From the IMG/VR virus record IMGVR_UViG_2711768049_000003: a DNA stretch of 5,824 nucleotides; one strand, written 5' to 3'. The DNA is from a virus. Lineage: Duplodnaviria > Heunggongvirae > Uroviricota > Caudoviricetes. The notes under the pieces are model-generated. The model saw only the letters and a program-made list of their open reading frames with translations, was not told the DNA's origin and did no database searches. Within the stretch, counting starts at the first letter, position 1, and each line of letters begins with the position of its first letter. The position numbers were made by a program, and so were the translations under genes. Shown piece after piece: positions 1 to 5,769 of the stretch.

Positions 1-3000
1 TCTTCTGTCCGGTTGCTGATTCAGCTTGAGCGTAGCGGGCACTGGGTGACAGAGAAGGATATCACCATTAACGGTAAGACCACCTCGCAGTACCTGACGT
101 CGGTGATAATCGGTAACCTCCCTGAGCGTCCCTTTAATATCCGGATAGTCAGGGAGACGGCGGACAGTACCACGGACCAGCTGCAGAACAGAACGCTCTG
201 GTCGTCATACACCGAAATCATCGATGTGAAACAGAGCTACCCGAACACAGCCATAGTGGGGCTGCAGGTGGATGCGGAGCAGTTCGGTGGGCAGCAGATG
301 GCGGTGAACTACCATATCCGCGGGCGCATCATCCAGGTGCCGTCAAACTATGACCCGGAAAAACGTACATACAGCGGTATCTGGGACGGGACTCTGAAAC
401 CGGCATACAGCAACAACCCGGCCTGGTGTCTGTGGGATATGCTGACGCATCCACGTTATGGTATGGGAAAGCGCCTCGGGGCCGCGGATGTGGACAAGTG
501 GGCGCTCTATGCCCTCGGACAGTACTGTGACCAGCCGGTTCCGGATGGCTTTGGTGGTACAGAACCCCGTATGACCTTTAATGCGTACCTGTCACAACAG
601 CGTAAGGCGTGGGACGTGCTGGGGGATTTCTGCTCTGCAATGCGCTGTATGCCGGTATGGAACGGACAGACGCTGACGTTTGTTCAGGACAGACCATCGG
701 ATGTTGTCTGGACTTATACCGCCGGTAATGTGGTGACGGGGGAGGATGGGGTAAGTTTTCATTACAGCTTCAGTGCCCTCAAGGACAGACACACGGCAGT
801 TGAGGTGAATTACACCGATCCGCAGAATGGCTGGCAGACATCGACTGAACTGGTGGAGGATCCGGATGCCATACTGCGCTACGGACGCAATCTTCTGAAG
901 ATGGATGCGTTCGGCTGTACCAGCCGTGGTCAGGCTCACCGGGCAGGCCTGTGGGTGATAAAGACCGAACTGCTGGAAACACAGACAGTGGATTTCAGTG
1001 TGGGGGCGGAGGGACTGCGTCACACGCCGGGCGATATCATTGAAATCAGTGATAATGCGTATGCCGGTACCGTGATCGGCGGGCGGATCCTGTCCGTCGA
1101 CAACGCCAGCCGGACCCTGACGCTTGACCGTGAAGTCACTCTCCCGGAAAAGGGCACATCCACGGTGAATCTGATAAACGGCAGTGGTAAGCCGGTGAGT
1201 GTGGATGTTACCGGGCAGCCATCACCTGACAGGATACAGATCAGCACACTGCCTGACGGGGTGGTGGAACACAGTATCTGGGGGCTGGCATTGCCGGGAC
1301 TGCGCCGCCGTCTGTTTCGGTGTGTGGCGATCCGCGAAAATGCGGACGGTACCTTCGCCATCACGGCGGTGCAGCATGTGCCGGAGAAGGAGGCCATCGT
1401 GGATAATGGTGCCACCTTTGAGCCGTTGTCCGGTTCGCTGAACAGTGTCACACCTCCGGCAGTACAGCATCTCACGGTGGAGGTAAGCGCGTCTGACGGT
1501 CAGTATCTGGCGGCGGCGAAATGGGACACGCCGAGGGTGGTGAAGGGCGTGCGCTTCAGTCTGCGCCTGACCAGCGGAACCGGTGAAAACAGCCGTCTGG
1601 TGACCAGCGCCATCACCGCCGACACGGAGCACCGTTTCAGTGGCCTGCCGCTGGGGGAATACACCCTGACGGTCAGGGCGATAAACAGCTATGGCCAGCT
1701 GGGGGAGCCTGCCACCACCACGTTCCGGATTAACGCACCGGCAGCACCTGCCACCATTGAACTGACCCCCGGCTATTTCCAGATAACAGCAGTGCCGCGT
1801 CTTGCGTTGTATGATCCGACGGTACAGTTTGAATTCTGGTTCTCAGAAAAACGCATCACGAACACGGCACAGGTGGAAACGTCCGCCCGTTATCTGGGGA
1901 CCGGCAGCCAGTGGAGCGTCTCCGGCTCGCACATTAAGCCAGGGACAGATTTCTGGTTTTATGTGCGCAGCGTCAACCTGGTGGGTAAATCCGTTTTTGT
2001 TGAAGCAACCGGACGGGCGAGCAATGATGCGGAAGGTTATCTGGACTTTTTCAAAGGAGAAATCGGGAAGACACATCTGGCACAGGGGATGTGGGAGCTG
2101 ATTGATAACAGTCAGCTTGATGATGAGATGGCGGAGATGAAGACCACCATCACAGAAACCCGCAATGAAATCACACAGACGGTCAATAAAATCCTGGAAG
2201 ACCAGAGTGTCACCATACAGCAGATACAGCGTGTGCAGAAGGAGACGGATGACAGCCTGAGCGCACTGTACATGCTGAAGGTGCAGAAAACGAAAAACGG
2301 TATTCCGTATGTTGCTGGTATTGGTGCGGGGATTGAGGATGTTGATGGCCAGACCCTGAGCAATATTCTGCTGCAGGCTGACCGTATCGCGATGATTAAC
2401 CCGGAGAACGGCAACACCACGCCGCTGTTTGTGGCGCAGGGGAATCAGTTGTTCATGAACGACGTATTCCTGAAGCGGTTGTTTGCGGTGAGCATCACCT
2501 CGTCCGGCAATCCCCCTGTGTTCTCCCTGACGCCGGAAGGCAGGCTGACGGCCCGTAATGCGGATATCAGCGGAAATATTAATGCGAACTCTGGCACGCT
2601 CAATAATGTGACCATTAACCAGAACTGCCGGATTCTGGGAAAACTGTCTGCAAACCAGATTGAAGGTGACCTGGTCAAAACAGTGGGGAAAGCTTTCCCA
2701 CGGAATAACAGTTATGCCAGTGGCACTATAACGGTCACCGTTTATGATGACCAGGGCTTCGACAGGCAGATCATCATTCCACCGGTACTGTTCCGGGGGG
2801 CGAGACATGAGCACCAGTCCAGCAAAGATCACACTTCAACATGGTATTCCACGTGTCAGTTACAGGTGCAGATGAACGGAAGGGTAATTTTTCATGAGCC
2901 GGCAACGGATGTCACCCGGGTGTTTTCGTCCGTCATTGATATGCCGGCAGGACGGGGTCATGTGACCCTGACGTTTAATGTGTGGTCGAACGGGGTGAAC

Positions 3001-3081
3001 CACTGGACGCCGACAACATACATCAGTGATTTACTGGTTGTGGTCATGAAAAAATCCACGGCGGGTATCAGTATTTCGTGA
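1..3081 (+). CDS. J: Lambda J-like central tail fibre / host-specificity protein, 5'-truncated by the window edge (C-terminal ~1027 codons present)
   Basis: Reading frame is open from nt 1 with no stop until TGA at 3079-3081; the listed ORF 13..3081 begins at an internal TTG, so the real start lies upstream of the window. The translation reads like lambda J-family proteins from memory, with fibronectin-III-like beta-rich repeats in the middle (e.g. [27 protein letters not shown]...[28 protein letters not shown]) and a distinct C-terminal ~250-aa domain. Position directly upstream of a side tail fibre gene fits lambdoid synteny. Confidence 0.88.
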
Positions 3082-3278
3082 ACATGATGACCGGAATTGC
3101 CGGAAGGATATAAAACCGTACAGTATGCGCGGGTGCCTTTGGCTGATGGCCGGAGGGAACACCTGAAGGCCTGATGTGAAAAGGCCCCGAGTCAACTTCA
3201 ATGTTAACCCGAGGCCCTGAACCGTCTACCTTAAGCAAGTGGCAGGTTAGCGCCTCTCCGTAATAAGGAGCAAGTTCT

Positions 3279-3389
3279 GTGTCGCAAAAACCGTTAAAAA
3301 CCACCGTGATTTGTATCACGGTAGTGCTCATTATCTGGATCACCCACAGTTCACTGTGTGAATTCCGGTTCCGGATAGCACCTTTTTAA
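3279..3389 (+). CDS. Candidate small membrane peptide (36 aa), Hok/Gef-family-like type I toxin, possibly C-terminally shortened
   Basis: GTG start at 3279 lies 8 nt after a consensus Shine-Dalgarno AAGGAG (3265-3270). Translation is (M)SQKPLKTTVICITVVLIIWITHSSLCEFRFRIAPF, stop TAA at 3387-3389. It has a ~15-residue hydrophobic core followed by a polar/charged L-C-E-x-R-x-R motif, resembling Hok/Gef as recalled (Gef ...VICITAVVAALVTRKDLCEVHIR...). It is too short for the ORF track and about 10 residues shorter than canonical Hok proteins. Confidence 0.4.
   Translation: MSQKPLKTTVICITVVLIIWITHSSLCEFRFRIAPF
3284..3322 (-). terminator. Possible minus-strand hairpin plus T-tract (candidate antisense-RNA terminator or mRNA structure)
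   Basis: Perfect 8-bp inverted repeat ACCGTGAT (3303-3310) / ATCACGGT (3315-3322) with a 4-nt loop. On the minus strand the stem is followed by GGTTTTTAACGGTTTTT (complement of + 3284-3302). No flanking minus-strand gene is evident, so function is uncertain. Confidence 0.22.
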
Positions 3390-3410
3390 TCCTGTAAACC
3401 ACGATTTTTA

Positions 3411-3444
3411 CCGCAGACCGGGAAACCGGCACTGCGGTTTTTTT
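3411..3444 (+). terminator. Rho-independent terminator (hairpin plus T7 tract) at the end of the J-stf intergenic insert
   Basis: CCGCAG (3411-3416) pairs with CTGCGG (3432-3437), with an inner CCGG/CCGG extension, and is followed immediately by TTTTTTT (3438-3444). It sits 22 nt after the small ORF stop and 13 nt before the stf ATG. Confidence 0.7.
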
Positions 3445-3457
3445 ATGGGGAAAATCT

Positions 3458-4864
3458 ATGGCAGTCAGAATATCGGGTGTGCTGAAGGACGGCGCGGGGA
3501 AGCCGGTACCGGGATGCACAATAGAACTGAAAGCGCGACGCACCACAGAAACGGTGATTGTCACTACGGTGGCATACGGGCAGCCGGGGGAGACAGGCAG
3601 CTACAGTATGGATGTTGAACCGGGGCTGTACCGTGTGACCCTGAACACAGAAGGGCGTATGCCGTCATACGTCGGTGACATTCTGGTGAAGGCGGACTCT
3701 GCACCGGGAACACTGAATAAATTCCTGATGGACTTTGAGGATGCGCCATATTATCCGAAAGCCCTCGCTGAGCTGGAAGCGGTGGCTGCGGAAATACTGA
3801 AGCGTGCTGAAGCCTCCGCAGCCAGTGCAGAGGAGGCCAAAAAACGGGCAGAGAATGCCAGGGGGCCGAAGGGTGATAAAGGTGACCCGGGACCGCAGGG
3901 GGTACAGGGACCGAAAGGTGAGACAGGTGCAACCGGGCCACAGGGTGAGCGTGGTGCAACAGGGGCACAGGGTGTTCCGGGCCCCAAAGGGGATACCGGA
4001 GCCACAGGACCTGAGGGTAAAGCCGGTCCTGTGGGACCAAAAGGTGACAGGGGGGACACAGGGCCCAGAGGTGAACGGGGTGAAAAGGGAGAGAAAGGAG
4101 ATCCGGGTGGCCCTCCAGGGCCAAAGGGAGATCCGGGACCACAGGGGCCTGCCGGGCCTCAGGGAAAATCAGGCAGCCTTGAAGATATTACAGACAGGGA
4201 AGCTTTCATCCGTGAGCTTGGTGTGCCCAGAGCATACGGGCGTGACATTTCAACCGGAGCAGGTGAGTGGACGACAGAAGAGTTTGTTGCCTGGCTGAAA
4301 GAGCAGGGGGCATTTGACCATACCTGCTGGATAATGAAGGCATCACTGCCAGCGGCGATGAATAAGGCCATCACTGATGTCGGACCGGGGAAACTCAATC
4401 TGGGCGGCTGTACCATTGAAGTGATGGGAACATATGACGCCGCCATTGTACGGGTCACCATTGGTGAATACGGTGCAACGGGGTTTATTAATGGCACGGT
4501 CTGTACCTGTACGGTTTATGGCGATACCCGGAAATACCACTGGCGGGTGGATTACGGTACCAGGAATAAACCCACGACGGCGAGTCTGGCTGTCAATGGC
4601 TGGGAACGTGATGAGGCTACCGGACGGATGCGACAATGGGGTACGCTTGTGATAAGTGAATCCGATGGTCAGGCGTTATCACTGCACTCCATCCGTTTTC
4701 CGGTGGTTTTTCCTTCAGCAGTGCTGAATGTTCAGGTTTCTCCGGTGGGGGAGCCCGGGAAAATTCCTGGATACACTCTGTCCTCACCGTCATTGCAGTC
4801 GGTGACACTGAGGACTGTCAGAGGAACCTCCGGTAAGTTTTTCTGGGAAGCGACCGGATACTGA
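3458..4864 (+). CDS. stf: Side tail fibre protein with lambda Stf-like N-terminal domain, central collagen-like Gly-X-Y tract and a distinct C-terminal (putative receptor-binding) domain
   Basis: ATG at 3458 preceded by GGGGA (3447-3451). The N-terminus [28 protein letters not shown]... closely resembles the lambda Stf N-terminus as recalled ([26 protein letters not shown]). An Ala/Glu-rich helical segment is followed by 34 Gly-X-Y triplets (aa 136-239), then a ~230-aa Gly-poor C-terminal domain. Stop TGA at 4862-4864. Confidence 0.9.
3863..4177 (+). repeat. Collagen-like Gly-X-Y coding repeat (27 uninterrupted triplets, a one-residue register break at GG, then 7 more)
   Basis: Translation G136-S240 of the stf ORF reads [104 protein letters not shown]. 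The DNA shows the matching GGN-rich 9-bp periodicity, which also produces the spurious minus-strand ORFs here. Confidence 0.9.
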
Positions 4865-4873
4865 GGAGGGATT

Positions 4874-5098
4874 ATGGAGCGTTATATTTTTTCACCGTCC
4901 GCGAATATGTTTTATCCGGCCTCCCTGCGTGCCGTTTACGAGACTACCGGAAACTGGCCTGTGGATGGTATAGAGGTGGACTATGCCGTGTATAAAGTTT
5001 TTGCAGCGGATGCTGCACCGGCGGGCATGAAGCGGGGAGTCGGTACGGAAAAAATGCCGGTCTGGGTGCCGGTATCGGAAGAGGGCACGGGAAAATGA
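4874..5098 (+). CDS. Small protein (74 aa) resembling the N-terminal domain of phage tail fibre assembly (Tfa) proteins
   Basis: Very strong Shine-Dalgarno GAGGAGGG (4863-4870) overlapping the stf stop, ATG at 4874. The translation MERYIFSPSANMFYPASLRAVYETTGNWPVDGIEVDYAVYKVF...AP.GMKRGVG...PVWV fits the conserved N-terminal pattern of Tfa proteins as recalled (FYPA-L---Y---G-WP-DG--V ... P-GK-R-G ... P-W). Its stop TGA (5096-5098) overlaps the next ATG in an ATGA junction. Confidence 0.75.
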   Translation: MERYIFSPSANMFYPASLRAVYETTGNWPVDGIEVDYAVYKVFAADAAPAGMKRGVGTEKMPVWVPVSEEGTGK

Positions 5099-5769
5099 TG
5101 CATGTCAGAAATTTTTCGTATTACACACCGGCAGAGCCGGATGTGGCGGGTGCGATATACCTGAAATCTGAGGATGGTCAGGACTGGTATGAATGCCATT
5201 CCAGGTTTGCGGAAGACACGCTGAAGGTGGTGTATGACAGCCGTGGTGTGATTACGGGATATGGTAAGGACATTAAGTTGTTGTGGCCGGTGAACCAGAG
5301 TGTGGCTGAAGTGCCGGACGCACCGGAAAGCCTGAAAATTGACCTGAGCGGACGCTGGGGATTTGACGGGGAAAAAATCACCGACCTGCTGACGGCTGAC
5401 AGAGCACGTGAACAGAAGGGGGCAGAAATAAATGCCTGGCGAAGTGCCATGGAAAATGCGGAGTATGTGTTTGAGTACAATGGACGGAAGTGGGACTACG
5501 GCAAGGTGACTCAGGTTCGTCTTGAGCCGTCGGTGGCAGCAGCAAAAGCGGGAATACTGCCGGAGGGATTTTTCTGGACAGATGCAGAAAATAATGACGT
5601 GCCGATGACAGCGGAGGCTTTGATCGCGCTCAGCGCCGCGGCAGAAAAGGCGATGTTTCAGAAAGGGATGGAAATCCACGTTCGCCAGCGCATGATGAAG
5701 AAAGAGCTGGAAAAGCTGACCAGTGCGGATGAGATACTGGCATATAAGGTTGGCTGGGCACAGGAATAA
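5095..5769 (+). CDS. Tail fibre assembly / chaperone-like protein (224 aa), N-terminal region resembling the P2 gpG / Mu U family
   Basis: ATGA overlap with the upstream ORF indicates translational coupling; same strand and operon as stf. Residues ~20-95 (IYLKSEDGQDWYECHSRFAEDTLKVVYDSRGVITGYGKD...SVAEVPDAPE) match the recalled P2 gpG/Mu U N-terminal pattern (W.WSEDGKNWYEE...DTIKIVYD...SVVEVPDI). The C-terminal half does not show the typical Tfa C-terminal ...PDIEWP motif. Stop TAA at 5767-5769. Confidence 0.75.
   Translation: MMHVRNFSYYTPAEPDVAGAIYLKSEDGQDWYECHSRFAEDTLKVVYDSRGVITGYGKDIKLLWPVNQSVAEVPDAPESLKIDLSGRWGFDGEKITDLLTADRAREQKGAEINAWRSAMENAEYVFEYNGRKWDYGKVTQVRLEPSVAAAKAGILPEGFFWTDAENNDVPMTAEALIALSAAAEKAMFQKGMEIHVRQRMMKKELEKLTSADEILAYKVGWAQE

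What the first reader, a model, noticed from the sequence alone, without database searches (positions are those of the whole stretch)
3265..3389. Candidate Hok/Gef-like type I toxin peptide hidden in the J-stf intergenic gap
A 36-codon ORF that falls below the ORF-track cutoff has a consensus Shine-Dalgarno (AAGGAG, 8-nt spacer, GTG start), a single hydrophobic transmembrane stretch (TTVICITVVLIIWIT) and then HSSLCEFRFR. This resembles the Hok-family signature (hydrophobic helix followed by T-R-K-x-L-C-E-[VIF]-[RH]-[IF]-[RK]) as I recall it for Hok, Gef, HokA and HokE. The peptide is about 10 residues shorter at the C-terminus than canonical Hok proteins, so it may be a truncated variant, a decayed copy, or a distinct small membrane protein. 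A toxin-like peptide inside a phage late operon would be a lysogenic-conversion or addiction-type cargo gene.
Basis: partly seen in the sequence, partly recalled or inferred. Interest (0 to 1): 0.72.

Follow-up and report, generated by a model that had tools for sequence, protein, structure and literature searches.

The report
Deletion-truncated prophage hok toxin gene
The 36-codon ORF between the phage tail genes J and stf is a real Hok/Gef toxin gene, but it is a rare copy of an already catalogued 46-residue prophage Hok that lost its 3' end in a 103-bp deletion, so it is most likely a dead remnant.

Summary
The ORF is at 3279-3389 (+), with a GTG start, an AAGGAG Shine-Dalgarno 8 nt upstream and one hydrophobic helix. 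It scores 27.8 bits against Pfam HOK_GEF (cut-off 22). The 5' leader matches Rfam sok/hok-leader RF01794 (34.9 bits, below gathering).

It is neither hidden nor new. The exact peptide is in NCBI as "hok/gef family protein". RefSeq annotates the same 111-bp ORF as Hok/Gef in strains M1, M3 and CI5.

Alignment with other E. coli prophages shows the parent at the same J-stf site: a 46-aa Hok. That parent was cloned for toxicity tests in a 2025/26 Hok catalogue and is not among the three clones reported non-toxic.

The window carries a 103-bp deletion between CCGGAT(A/G)GC repeats. It removes:
- the last 12 codons, including the conserved Glu and Cys of the periplasmic tail;
- a 3' hairpin;
- most of the 3' partner of the 5'-3' closing helix.

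All deletion alleles examined also start with GTG rather than ATG. Three of the seven complete genomes that carry the deletion have a further frameshift or IS lesion, and the frameshifted form is the commonest in public data (440 versus 33 contigs).

Verdict: a decaying allele of a known prophage hok/sok locus, of low interest.

The parts
3097..3124 (+). Candidate hok promoter: -35 TTGCCG (3097-3102), 16-nt spacer, -10 TACAGT (3119-3124). The predicted +1 is near 3131.
   Evidence: A relaxed hexamer scan scored 8 of 12. The stricter tool scan found nothing. The predicted +1 coincides with position 1 of the Rfam RF01794 match. This is an inference and has not been shown.
3131..3292 (+). hok mRNA 5' leader. 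It includes the tac-like 5' element GGGTGCCTTTGGCTGAT (3131-3147).
   Evidence: Rfam RF01794 scores 34.9 bits, E 3.9e-6, model positions 1-157 of 157, on the + strand; the gathering score is 59. In full-length relatives 3131-3147 forms a 17-bp helix with the 3' UTR.
3201..3263 (+). A 20-codon upstream ORF (ATG...TAA) that ends 15 nt before the hok start codon. It is a possible mok-like leader ORF, but it is not conserved.
   Evidence: the ORF has 20 codons here and in L004, 13 in CI5 and 10 in L002, and is absent in phage P13374. It has no Pfam hit.
3265..3270 (+). Shine-Dalgarno sequence AAGGAG of hok.
   Evidence: It is conserved in all alleles aligned.
3279..3389 (+). Truncated hok ORF of 36 codons with a GTG start. 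Residues 1-34 are identical to the 46-aa parent. The last two residues (PF) and the stop codon come from the former 3' UTR.
   Evidence: Pfam HOK_GEF scores 27.8 bits, profile positions 8-30 of 42. Alignments A1 and A2 show the truncation. The exact peptide is in NCBI as a hok/gef family protein.
3371..3383 (+). Scar of the 103-bp deletion. It comprises the retained CCGGATAGC repeat (3371-3379) followed by the remnant (GCACC) of the fbi-like 3' element.
   Evidence: Full-length alleles have CCGGATAGC...(103 bp)...CCGGATGGCACC. The junction is identical in all 6 deletion alleles aligned.
3411..3444 (+). Intrinsic-terminator-like hairpin (CCGCAGACCGG-GAAA-CCGGCACTGCGG) plus T7. This is the presumed 3' end of the hok mRNA, 14 nt upstream of the stf ATG.
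   Evidence: MFE folds. It is conserved in all alleles. The simple terminator scan missed it because of its internal loop.
3244..3273 (-). Candidate sok promoter on the minus strand: -35 TTGCTC (3273-3268), 18-nt spacer, -10 TAACCT (3249-3244).
   Evidence: Read from the sequence (output). It matches only 6 of 12 consensus positions. The spacer is 17 nt in full-length alleles and in CI5. This is inferred by position; it has not been shown.
3175..3237 (-). Candidate Sok-like antisense RNA of about 60 nt. It has a 19-nt single-stranded 5' tail (3237-3219), a 16-bp hairpin (3218-3181) and then UUUUCAC.
   Evidence: The minus strand folds at -26.1 kcal/mol with 16 contiguous pairs, including G.U pairs. 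The plus strand reaches only -12.9 kcal/mol because those positions become C.A mismatches.

Best explanation
The ORF is the 5' two-thirds of a prophage hok gene. hok/sok is a type I toxin-antitoxin locus, and here it sits as a cargo insertion between tail genes J and stf of a lambdoid prophage.

In most carriers the locus encodes a 46-aa Hok. Its roughly 420-nt mRNA is closed by a long 5'-3' helix, the tac/fbi principle of plasmid R1 hok. An antisense Sok-like RNA is read from the opposite strand.

In this window a 103-bp deletion between two copies of CCGGAT(A/G)GC fused codon 34 to the 3' UTR. The fusion adds Pro-Phe and a stop codon. The deletion removed the last 12 codons, which include the family-conserved Glu (R1 E41) and Cys (R1 position 48) of the periplasmic tail. 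It also removed a GC-rich 3' hairpin and 10 of the 17 pairs' worth of the 3' partner of the closing helix. The start codon is GTG instead of ATG.

The most likely state is a disarmed, decaying allele. The leader, the SD, the Sok-like hairpin and the terminator survive, and a short membrane peptide may still be made. It probably no longer kills, and the locus no longer works as a regulated hok/sok module.

Shown: the homology, the deletion and what it removed, its rarity, and the secondary lesions in sister alleles. Inferred: loss of toxicity, the promoters and the existence of the Sok transcript.
For: 1. Family: Pfam HOK_GEF scores 27.8 bits for the 36-aa form (profile positions 8-30) and 43.5 bits for the 46-aa form (profile positions 8-42 of 42). 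The long form is therefore the ancestral, complete one.

2. Deletion: alignments A1 and A2 show an identical 103-bp gap flanked by CCGGATAGC / CCGGATGGC.

3. RNA:
- MFE folds of two full-length mRNAs give a 17-bp 5'-3' closing helix that is absent from the window's fold.
- The end-to-end duplex energy is -38.7 kcal/mol for the full-length form and -23.2 for the window.
- RNAalifold of four full-length loci, including a homologue at 65% protein identity, keeps that helix.
- The tac/fbi principle is described for R1 in PMC9841398.

4. Rarity: the junction probe matches as a single piece in 7 of 5426 complete E. coli genomes. The undeleted segment is in 148 genomes, at 255 places.

5. Decay:
- All 6 deletion alleles aligned start with GTG; the four full-length E. 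coli alleles examined (L002, L004, L010 and phage P13374) start with ATG.
- LZSFT34 and NCTC9112 add a 10-bp frameshift.
- A39 has an IS in place of the leader.
- The frameshift-derived 27-aa product is on 440 contigs, against 33 for the intact 36-aa ORF.

6. Importance of the C-terminus:
- 18 of 20 reachable premature stops, Y48N and C-terminal extensions abolish R1 Hok toxicity (PMC9841398).
- C46S abolishes edited-HokB toxicity (PMC12214031).
- The periplasmic C-terminus has been proposed as the toxic domain (Poulsen 1991, as cited in PMC8509063).
- The Hok catalogue discards CDSs under 40 aa as degenerate.

7. The parent is listed in that catalogue's Table S2 as 79_1563 and was cloned for toxicity assays. 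Of 45 clones, 42 were toxic, and the three non-toxic ones have other identifiers.
Against: - The ORF is intact, with a strong SD at ideal spacing, in M18, M1, M3 and CI5.
- The deletion allele occurs in prophages that differ by about 6% in this region and have different neighbours. It has therefore persisted and spread rather than being a very recent accident.
- Several type I toxins are little more than a transmembrane helix of this length (my own knowledge: TisB, Ibs, Ldr, ShoB). Saturation mutagenesis of HokC argued that the transmembrane region contributes to toxicity (PMC8509063). Residual membrane activity therefore cannot be excluded.
- No expression or toxicity data exist for this allele.
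- The exact positions of the premature stops scored in R1 Hok were not available to me; the supplement was not held.
Confidence: 0.78

Rival explanations
1. A still-functional 'minimal Hok'. The 36-aa peptide, made of the transmembrane helix plus the SLCEFRFR motif, keeps membrane-damaging activity. Because the mRNA has lost its fold-back partner, it is translatable without 3' processing and is held in check only by the Sok-like RNA. It could also be expressed from late read-through transcripts to help lysis, as proposed for HokW.
For: - The ORF, SD, leader and antisense hairpin are intact.
- Five of the seven family-conserved residues are retained: C12, T14, L26, C27 and E28, equivalent to R1 C16, T18, L30, C31 and E32.
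- Single alanine substitutions of the conserved residues, including E41A, did not abolish R1 Hok toxicity.
- The allele is present in several prophage backgrounds.
- HokW aids Sp5 release (PMC8621323).
Against: - The deletion removes the whole distal periplasmic segment, including the second conserved Cys.
- Premature stops and even small C-terminal changes inactivate R1 Hok. C46S inactivates edited HokB.
- The start codon is downgraded from ATG to GTG in all deletion alleles aligned.
- Most public copies of the deletion allele carry an additional frameshift (440 versus 33 contigs).
- The allele is 20-fold rarer than the intact one in complete genomes.
Confidence: 0.1
2. An orphan antitoxin. 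The toxin is dead, but the locus is kept for its Sok-like antisense RNA. That RNA would neutralise related hok mRNAs from incoming or co-resident prophages (anti-addiction or cross-immunity).
For: - The leader and antisense region (3131-3278) is intact in 6 of the 7 deletion carriers.
- The hairpin at 3181-3218 is markedly more stable on the minus strand, through G.U pairs.
- The anti-addiction idea is raised for chromosomal TA loci in the Hok catalogue's discussion.
- M1 and M3 carry a second place matching the locus.
Against: - M18 itself has only one copy of this hok type, so there is no obvious target.
- The candidate sok promoter matches only 6 of 12 consensus positions. Here it also has an 18-nt spacer caused by an extra T at 3264.
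- In A39 the whole leader and Sok region is replaced by an IS.
- The Sok-target region differs strongly between allele groups, which argues against broad cross-reaction. R1 hok was not silenced by the five chromosomal Sok RNAs.
- Conservation over such short divergence is equally expected under neutrality.
Confidence: 0.1
3. A chance ORF in a non-coding spacer, with no relation to Hok.
For: The ORF is short. RefSeq's current M18 annotation calls only a 21-aa 'hypothetical protein' here.
Against: - The Pfam match is above gathering.
- 34 of 34 residues are identical to an annotated 46-aa Hok/Gef protein at the same site.
- The upstream leader matches Rfam.
- The overlapping minus-strand ORFs have no Pfam hits.
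Confidence: 0.01

Closest known systems
46-aa prophage Hok: 'cluster 79', sequence 79_1563 in Escalera-Maurer et al., bioRxiv 10.1101/2025.08.07.668861. RefSeq calls it 'Hok/Gef family protein', e.g. WP_000078852.1 and WP_042022545.1.
   Same: - It occupies the same J-stf site in lambdoid E. coli prophages.
- Residues 1-34 are identical.
- It has the same leader, SD, antisense hairpin and terminator.
   Different: - The window lacks 103 bp: codons 35-46, the stop codon, the 3' hairpin and most of the fbi-like element.
- The start codon is GTG, not ATG.
- There is an extra T at 3264.
- The parent was cloned for toxicity tests and is not among the three non-toxic clones. The truncated form is untested and falls below that study's 40-aa filter.
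hok/sok of plasmid R1, the paradigm type I toxin-antitoxin system
   Same: - A small single-pass membrane toxin with the ...SLCE(I/F)R(Y/F)R motif.
- A leader recognisable by Rfam RF01794.
- An antisense RNA opposite the leader.
- In the full-length relatives, a 5'-3' closing helix like tac/fbi (mechanism as summarised in PMC9841398).
   Different: - R1 Hok is 52 aa and has an overlapping 70-codon mok. No conserved mok frame is seen here.
- The window's allele has lost the fbi partner and the C-terminal tail.
- Rfam scores are below gathering (34.9 bits in the window and 51.1 in the full-length relative, against 59).
hokW-sokW of Stx2 prophage Sp5 (Takada et al. 2021, PMC8621323)
   Same: It is a Hok-family type I TA locus carried by a lambdoid prophage. 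This gives a precedent for a phage-benefit role, namely earlier lysis and release.
   Different: - HokW is a 51-aa HokC/D-like protein (MKQQKAM...EVAVFVDYESEK, read from the primers), so it is a different Hok subgroup.
- Sp5-type phages separately carry a 46-aa homologue, 65% identical to the parent of this ORF, downstream of lom.
Degenerate or inactive chromosomal hok loci
   Same: Hok loci that have lost function are a recognised class. The catalogue removed 5.1% of unique CDSs as shorter than 40 aa and 2.6% as having internal stops. Earlier work judged the K-12 chromosomal loci inactive.
   Different: The lesion here is a specific microhomology-flanked 103-bp deletion that also removes the mRNA's 3' regulatory partner. 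It has spread to several prophage backgrounds.

Membership tests
Hok/Gef toxin family (Pfam PF01848) | Profile match at or above Pfam's gathering score | tested here: met
   The score is 27.8 bits against a cut-off of 22, E 1.9e-6, but only profile positions 8-30 of 42 are matched.
Hok/Gef toxin family (Pfam PF01848) | A single N-terminal transmembrane helix | tested here: met
   The Kyte-Doolittle 15-residue mean peaks at 2.51 over residues 8-22, TTVICITVVLIIWIT.
Hok/Gef toxin family (Pfam PF01848) | Family-conserved residues C16, T18, L30, C31 and E32 (R1 numbering; present in more than 80% of 1264 Hok peptides) | tested here: met
   C12, T14, L26, C27 and E28 are present.
Hok/Gef toxin family (Pfam PF01848) | A complete periplasmic C-terminal tail with the conserved E41 and the Cys/Tyr at position 48, and a length of at least 40 aa (the catalogue's criterion for a non-degenerate Hok) | tested here: not met
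   The parent's residues 35-46 (GAEIAAFLQCKQ) are deleted and replaced by PF, giving a length of 36 aa.
Hok/Gef toxin family (Pfam PF01848) | Kills or arrests the cell when expressed | not testable with these tools
   Only the 46-aa parent was assayed, and it is not among the three non-toxic clones.
HokA (NCBIfam NF007290 equivalog) and Hok family subfamily NF007279 | Score at or above the curated cut-off | tested here: not met
   The 36-aa form scores 23.5 bits against 89 and 26.2 against 73. Even the 46-aa parent reaches only 38.2 and 37.2 bits. This is a distinct Hok subgroup, not HokA.
hok/sok type I TA locus (RNA architecture) | A hok mRNA leader / sok region recognised by Rfam RF01794 | tested here: inconclusive
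   The score is 34.9 bits, E 3.9e-6, with the full model length on the + strand, but it is below the gathering score of 59. No hit appears at the gathering threshold. The full-length relative scores 51.1 bits.
hok/sok type I TA locus (RNA architecture) | An antisense Sok RNA with its own promoter and terminator hairpin opposite the leader | tested here: inconclusive
   The hairpin at 3218-3181 (-) folds at -26.1 kcal/mol, and strand asymmetry favours the minus strand. The promoter candidate matches only 6 of 12 consensus positions. No transcript data are available.
hok/sok type I TA locus (RNA architecture) | A long-range 5'-3' (tac/fbi) pairing that keeps the full-length mRNA closed | tested here: not met
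   The pairing is predicted in full-length relatives (17 bp, -38.7 kcal/mol). It is lost from the window's MFE fold, because the deletion removes 10 pairs' worth of the 3' strand.
hok/sok type I TA locus (RNA architecture) | A mok leader ORF translationally coupled to hok | tested here: inconclusive
   A 20-codon ORF at 3201-3263 stops 15 nt before the hok start codon. Its length varies (20, 13 or 10 codons) or it is absent in relatives. Non-ATG starts were not explored.

The most novel reading that the evidence does not exclude
The 103-bp deletion created a working 'minimal Hok' module. In this reading, a 36-aa peptide lacking the periplasmic tail still damages the membrane. Its mRNA cannot fold back and so needs no 3' processing, which leaves it controlled by the Sok-like RNA alone. 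Alternatively, the locus survives as an orphan Sok that gives immunity against related prophage hok genes.
Probability: 0.1. Interest if true: 0.45.

Novelty: already known. Interest (0 to 1): 0.14.

Why it matters
This matters little beyond correct annotation. The case shows that the J-stf gap of lambdoid prophages is a regular site for a hok/sok cargo gene, at or next to the place where lom sits. It also shows that such loci decay by small deletions, like chromosomal hok genes.

For annotation, the ORF should be labelled a truncated Hok/Gef (a likely pseudogene), not a new small toxin.

Only if the 36-aa peptide proved toxic would it be informative. That result would define the minimal toxic core of Hok and test the old claim that the periplasmic tail is the toxic domain.

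Tried and rejected
No survey outside E. coli and phage records was therefore made.
- The built-in promoter/terminator scan found nothing in 2900-3600. The promoters given here are weaker matches found by a relaxed scan or by eye. The terminator was seen only in the folds.
- Rfam at gathering thresholds found nothing in the window. The mir-540 and Togavirus hits are just the Sok-like hairpin and were dismissed.
- A conserved mok frame was sought and not found.
- The minus-strand ORFs at 3068-3343 and 3340-3564 have no Pfam hit and are treated as mechanical.
- Identity with HokW was considered and rejected, because HokW is a different sequence class. HokA equivalog membership was rejected.
- The supplement of PMC9841398 listing which stop codons were scored was not available.

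Full report
**Observation**

The window is the tail end of a lambdoid prophage late operon. It holds the C-terminal 1022 codons of J (13-3081), a 376-bp gap, a tail-fibre gene (3458-4864) and two tail-fibre-assembly-type ORFs. The tail-fibre gene has a Pfam PF08400 N-terminal domain, collagen repeats and a Gp53-like C-terminus.

The window is 100% identical to the chromosome of the mouse E. coli strain M18.

In the gap, AAGGAG lies at 3265-3270, GTG at 3279 and TAA at 3387-3389. The ORF encodes MSQKPLKTTVICITVVLIIWITHSSLCEFRFRIAPF. Hydropathy shows one transmembrane segment at residues 8-22.

**Is it Hok?**

Yes. Pfam HOK_GEF matches with 27.8 bits (curated cut-off 22), E 1.9e-6, but only over profile positions 8-30 of 42.

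Upstream, Rfam RF01794 ('sok') matches the + strand at 3131-3292 over the whole model (34.9 bits, E 3.9e-6, gathering score 59). The model's consensus ends in the toxin's AUG, so in practice it models the hok leader. Nothing in the window reaches an Rfam gathering score.

**Where the peptide comes from**

BLAST against 5426 complete E. coli genomes finds the gap sequence in 124 of them. In most, the same J-stf site carries a 141-bp gene that RefSeq annotates as 'Hok/Gef family protein'. Its product is the 46-aa MSQKPLKTTVICITVVLIIWITHSSLCEFRFRIAGAEIAAFLQCKQ. The 46-aa form matches the Pfam profile to its end (positions 8-42 of 42, 43.5 bits), so it is the complete, ancestral form.

Aligning the window with these loci shows a clean 103-bp gap in the window. 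It is flanked in the full-length alleles by CCGGATAGC and CCGGATGGC.

The deletion fuses codon 34 to the former 3' UTR, which adds Pro-Phe and a stop codon. It removes three things:
- the last 12 codons and the stop codon;
- a GC-rich hairpin (GGCGGGGGA...TCCCCCGCC);
- the sequence GGTGGTCAGCCGGATG.

**Consequences for the protein**

In R1 numbering the window peptide keeps C16, T18, L30, C31 and E32. It loses E41 and the Cys/Tyr at position 48. These are the residues found conserved in 1264 Hok peptides.

The literature points to the C-terminus being needed:
- In R1 Hok, 18 of the 20 premature stops reachable by one substitution scored as loss of function. So did Y48N, read-through extensions and a C-terminal FLAG tag (PMC9841398).
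- In HokB, C46S abolishes the toxicity of the edited protein (PMC12214031).
- The periplasmic C-terminus was proposed as the toxic domain by Poulsen et al. 1991, as cited in PMC8509063. That paper also shows that the transmembrane part contributes.
- The recent Hok catalogue discards CDSs shorter than 40 aa as degenerate (10.1101/2025.08.07.668861).

I could not see which stop positions were scored in R1, because the supplement was not held. Loss of toxicity here is therefore an inference.

**Consequences for the RNA**

MFE folds of the full-length mRNA from two strains close the molecule with a 17-bp helix. It pairs GGGUGCCUUUGGCUGAU at the 5' end with GUCAGCCGGA-U-GGCACCU in the 3' UTR. The window's mRNA instead folds its 5' end locally.

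The best end-to-end duplex drops from -38.7 to -23.2 kcal/mol. RNAalifold on four full-length loci keeps the closing helix. One of the four is the homologue from phage P13374, at 65% protein identity. Four sequences are too few for covariation statistics.

This is the tac/fbi principle described for R1 hok, in which the closed full-length mRNA is untranslatable until it is processed at the 3' end (PMC9841398). The window's allele has lost that layer of control.

**Antitoxin side**

On the minus strand, 3218-3181 forms a 16-bp hairpin followed by UUUUCAC. It folds at -26.1 kcal/mol, against -12.9 kcal/mol for the plus strand. The difference arises because three G.U pairs on the minus strand become C.A mismatches on the plus strand. 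That asymmetry favours a minus-strand RNA, that is, a Sok-like transcript of about 60 nt running from about 3237 to 3175.

Its candidate promoter (TTGCTC-18-TAACCT, 3273-3244) matches only 6 of 12 consensus positions. The window also has an extra T (3264) that lengthens the spacer from 17 to 18 nt.

A candidate hok promoter (TTGCCG-16-TACAGT, 3097-3124) would start transcription at 3131, exactly where the Rfam model begins. The stricter tool scan reported no promoter or terminator.

A 20-codon upstream ORF (3201-3263) stops 15 nt before the hok start codon. Its length is not conserved among relatives, so I cannot call it mok.

**How common, and is it decaying?**

A probe across the junction matches as one piece in only 7 complete genomes: M18, M1, M3, CI5, LZSFT34, NCTC9112 and A39. 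The undeleted 3' segment is in 148 genomes, at 255 places.

All six deletion alleles I aligned start with GTG; the full-length alleles examined start with ATG. LZSFT34 and NCTC9112 add a 10-bp deletion that frameshifts codons 4-7. In A39 an IS fragment replaces the whole leader.

In the 15-billion-protein collection, contig counts are:
- the exact 36-aa peptide: 33 contigs;
- the 27-aa product that a gene caller derives from the frameshifted allele (MICITVVLIIWITHRSLCEFRFRIAPF): 440 contigs;

Most copies of the deletion allele are thus doubly broken. That is what one expects once the gene is no longer under selection.

Against a purely recent accident, the allele is found in prophages with different J ends and different downstream genes. 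It has therefore persisted and moved between backgrounds.

**Already known?**

Yes.
- GenBank APL35650.1 names the exact 36-aa peptide 'hok/gef family protein'.
- RefSeq annotates the same 111-bp ORF as Hok/Gef in M3 and CI5. The current M18 RefSeq record shows only a 21-aa 'hypothetical protein' at 3324-3389.
- The parent, as its ...CKR variant, is sequence 79_1563 in Table S2 of Escalera-Maurer et al. It was cloned as LRP163 for toxicity assays. Of 45 clones, 42 were toxic, and the three non-toxic ones are other sequences. [quoted passage not shown]
- A 65%-identical 46-aa homologue lies downstream of lom in the short-tailed Stx phages, where it is labelled 'MokW-like host killing' or 'host toxic membrane protein'.
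- HokW-SokW of Sp5, the one prophage Hok studied functionally, is a different 51-aa Hok of the HokC/D type (PMC8621323).
- The NCBIfam HokA and Hok-subfamily models score far below their cut-offs. This is a separate Hok subgroup, not HokA.

**Verdict**

The 'hidden' and 'cargo toxin' framing is not supported for this allele.

The best explanation is a deletion-disarmed remnant of a known prophage hok/sok locus (confidence about 0.78). Residual toxicity and an orphan-Sok role each keep about 0.1. Novelty: already known. Interest: low.

Noticed in passing
window 3458-4864 (+): The tail-fibre gene downstream combines a prophage tail-fibre N-terminal domain (PF08400), two stretches of collagen triple-helix G-X-Y repeats (about residues 136-235) and a Gp53-like C-terminal domain.
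   Followed up: partly
window 4874-5098 and 5095-5769 (+): The tail-fibre assembly region is split into two ORFs: a 74-aa ORF with no Pfam hit and a 224-aa DUF4376 protein. They overlap by 4 nt (ATGA). RefSeq labels them 'tail fiber assembly protein' and 'DUF4376 domain-containing protein'.
   Followed up: no
L003 (NCTC9112) 4190-4290; L008 (LZSFT34): The extra 10-bp deletion leaves a 6-codon ORF (GTG TCG CAA AAA CCA CCG TGA). Its stop codon overlaps the GTG start of a 27-aa Hok remnant (GTGA). That remnant is on 440 public contigs, more than the 36-aa form. Whether this stop-start overlap allows re-initiation was not examined.
   Followed up: partly
L009 3001-3141 (phage P13374); VT2-Sakai 44701-44838: Short-tailed Stx phages carry a 46-aa homologue (MSQKSLITVTICMTVIFTIWMLHGSLCEFRLNLWGAEFAAFLQCKQ) just downstream of lom. 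In several records, including VT2-Sakai/Sp5, nothing is annotated at that place. Sp5 would then hold a second hok besides hokW.
   Followed up: partly
window 3181-3218: The hairpin is much more stable on the minus strand than on the plus strand (-26.1 versus -12.9 kcal/mol), because G.U pairs on one strand are C.A mismatches on the other. This is a simple strand-of-origin clue for the antisense RNA. The sequence between this hairpin and 3245 differs strongly between allele groups. That would fit diversification of Sok-target specificity.
   Followed up: partly
window 3264: An extra T (CCGTAATAAGGAG versus CCGTAAAAGGAG in full-length alleles and CI5) creates a tandem TAATAA stop after the upstream ORF. 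It also lengthens the putative sok promoter spacer from 17 to 18 nt.
   Followed up: no
L001 1-93 (strain M18, upstream of the window): A gene annotated 'porin OmpC' lies immediately upstream of the prophage minor tail protein L gene. This suggests a phage-borne porin inside the tail gene cluster. The prophage abuts potB and a truncated ykgJ-family gene.
   Followed up: no
L006 2847-3881 (strain A39): An IS fragment (an integrase-core pseudogene) has replaced the hok promoter, leader and Sok region. As a result, RefSeq annotates an artificially extended 62-aa 'Hok/Gef family protein' that runs in from the IS.
   Followed up: no
window 1843-2832 (-): A 329-aa ORF lies antisense inside J, along with several other antisense ORFs of 100-190 aa in J and stf. 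They are probably mechanical by-products of the GC-rich coding sequence and were not examined.
   Followed up: no
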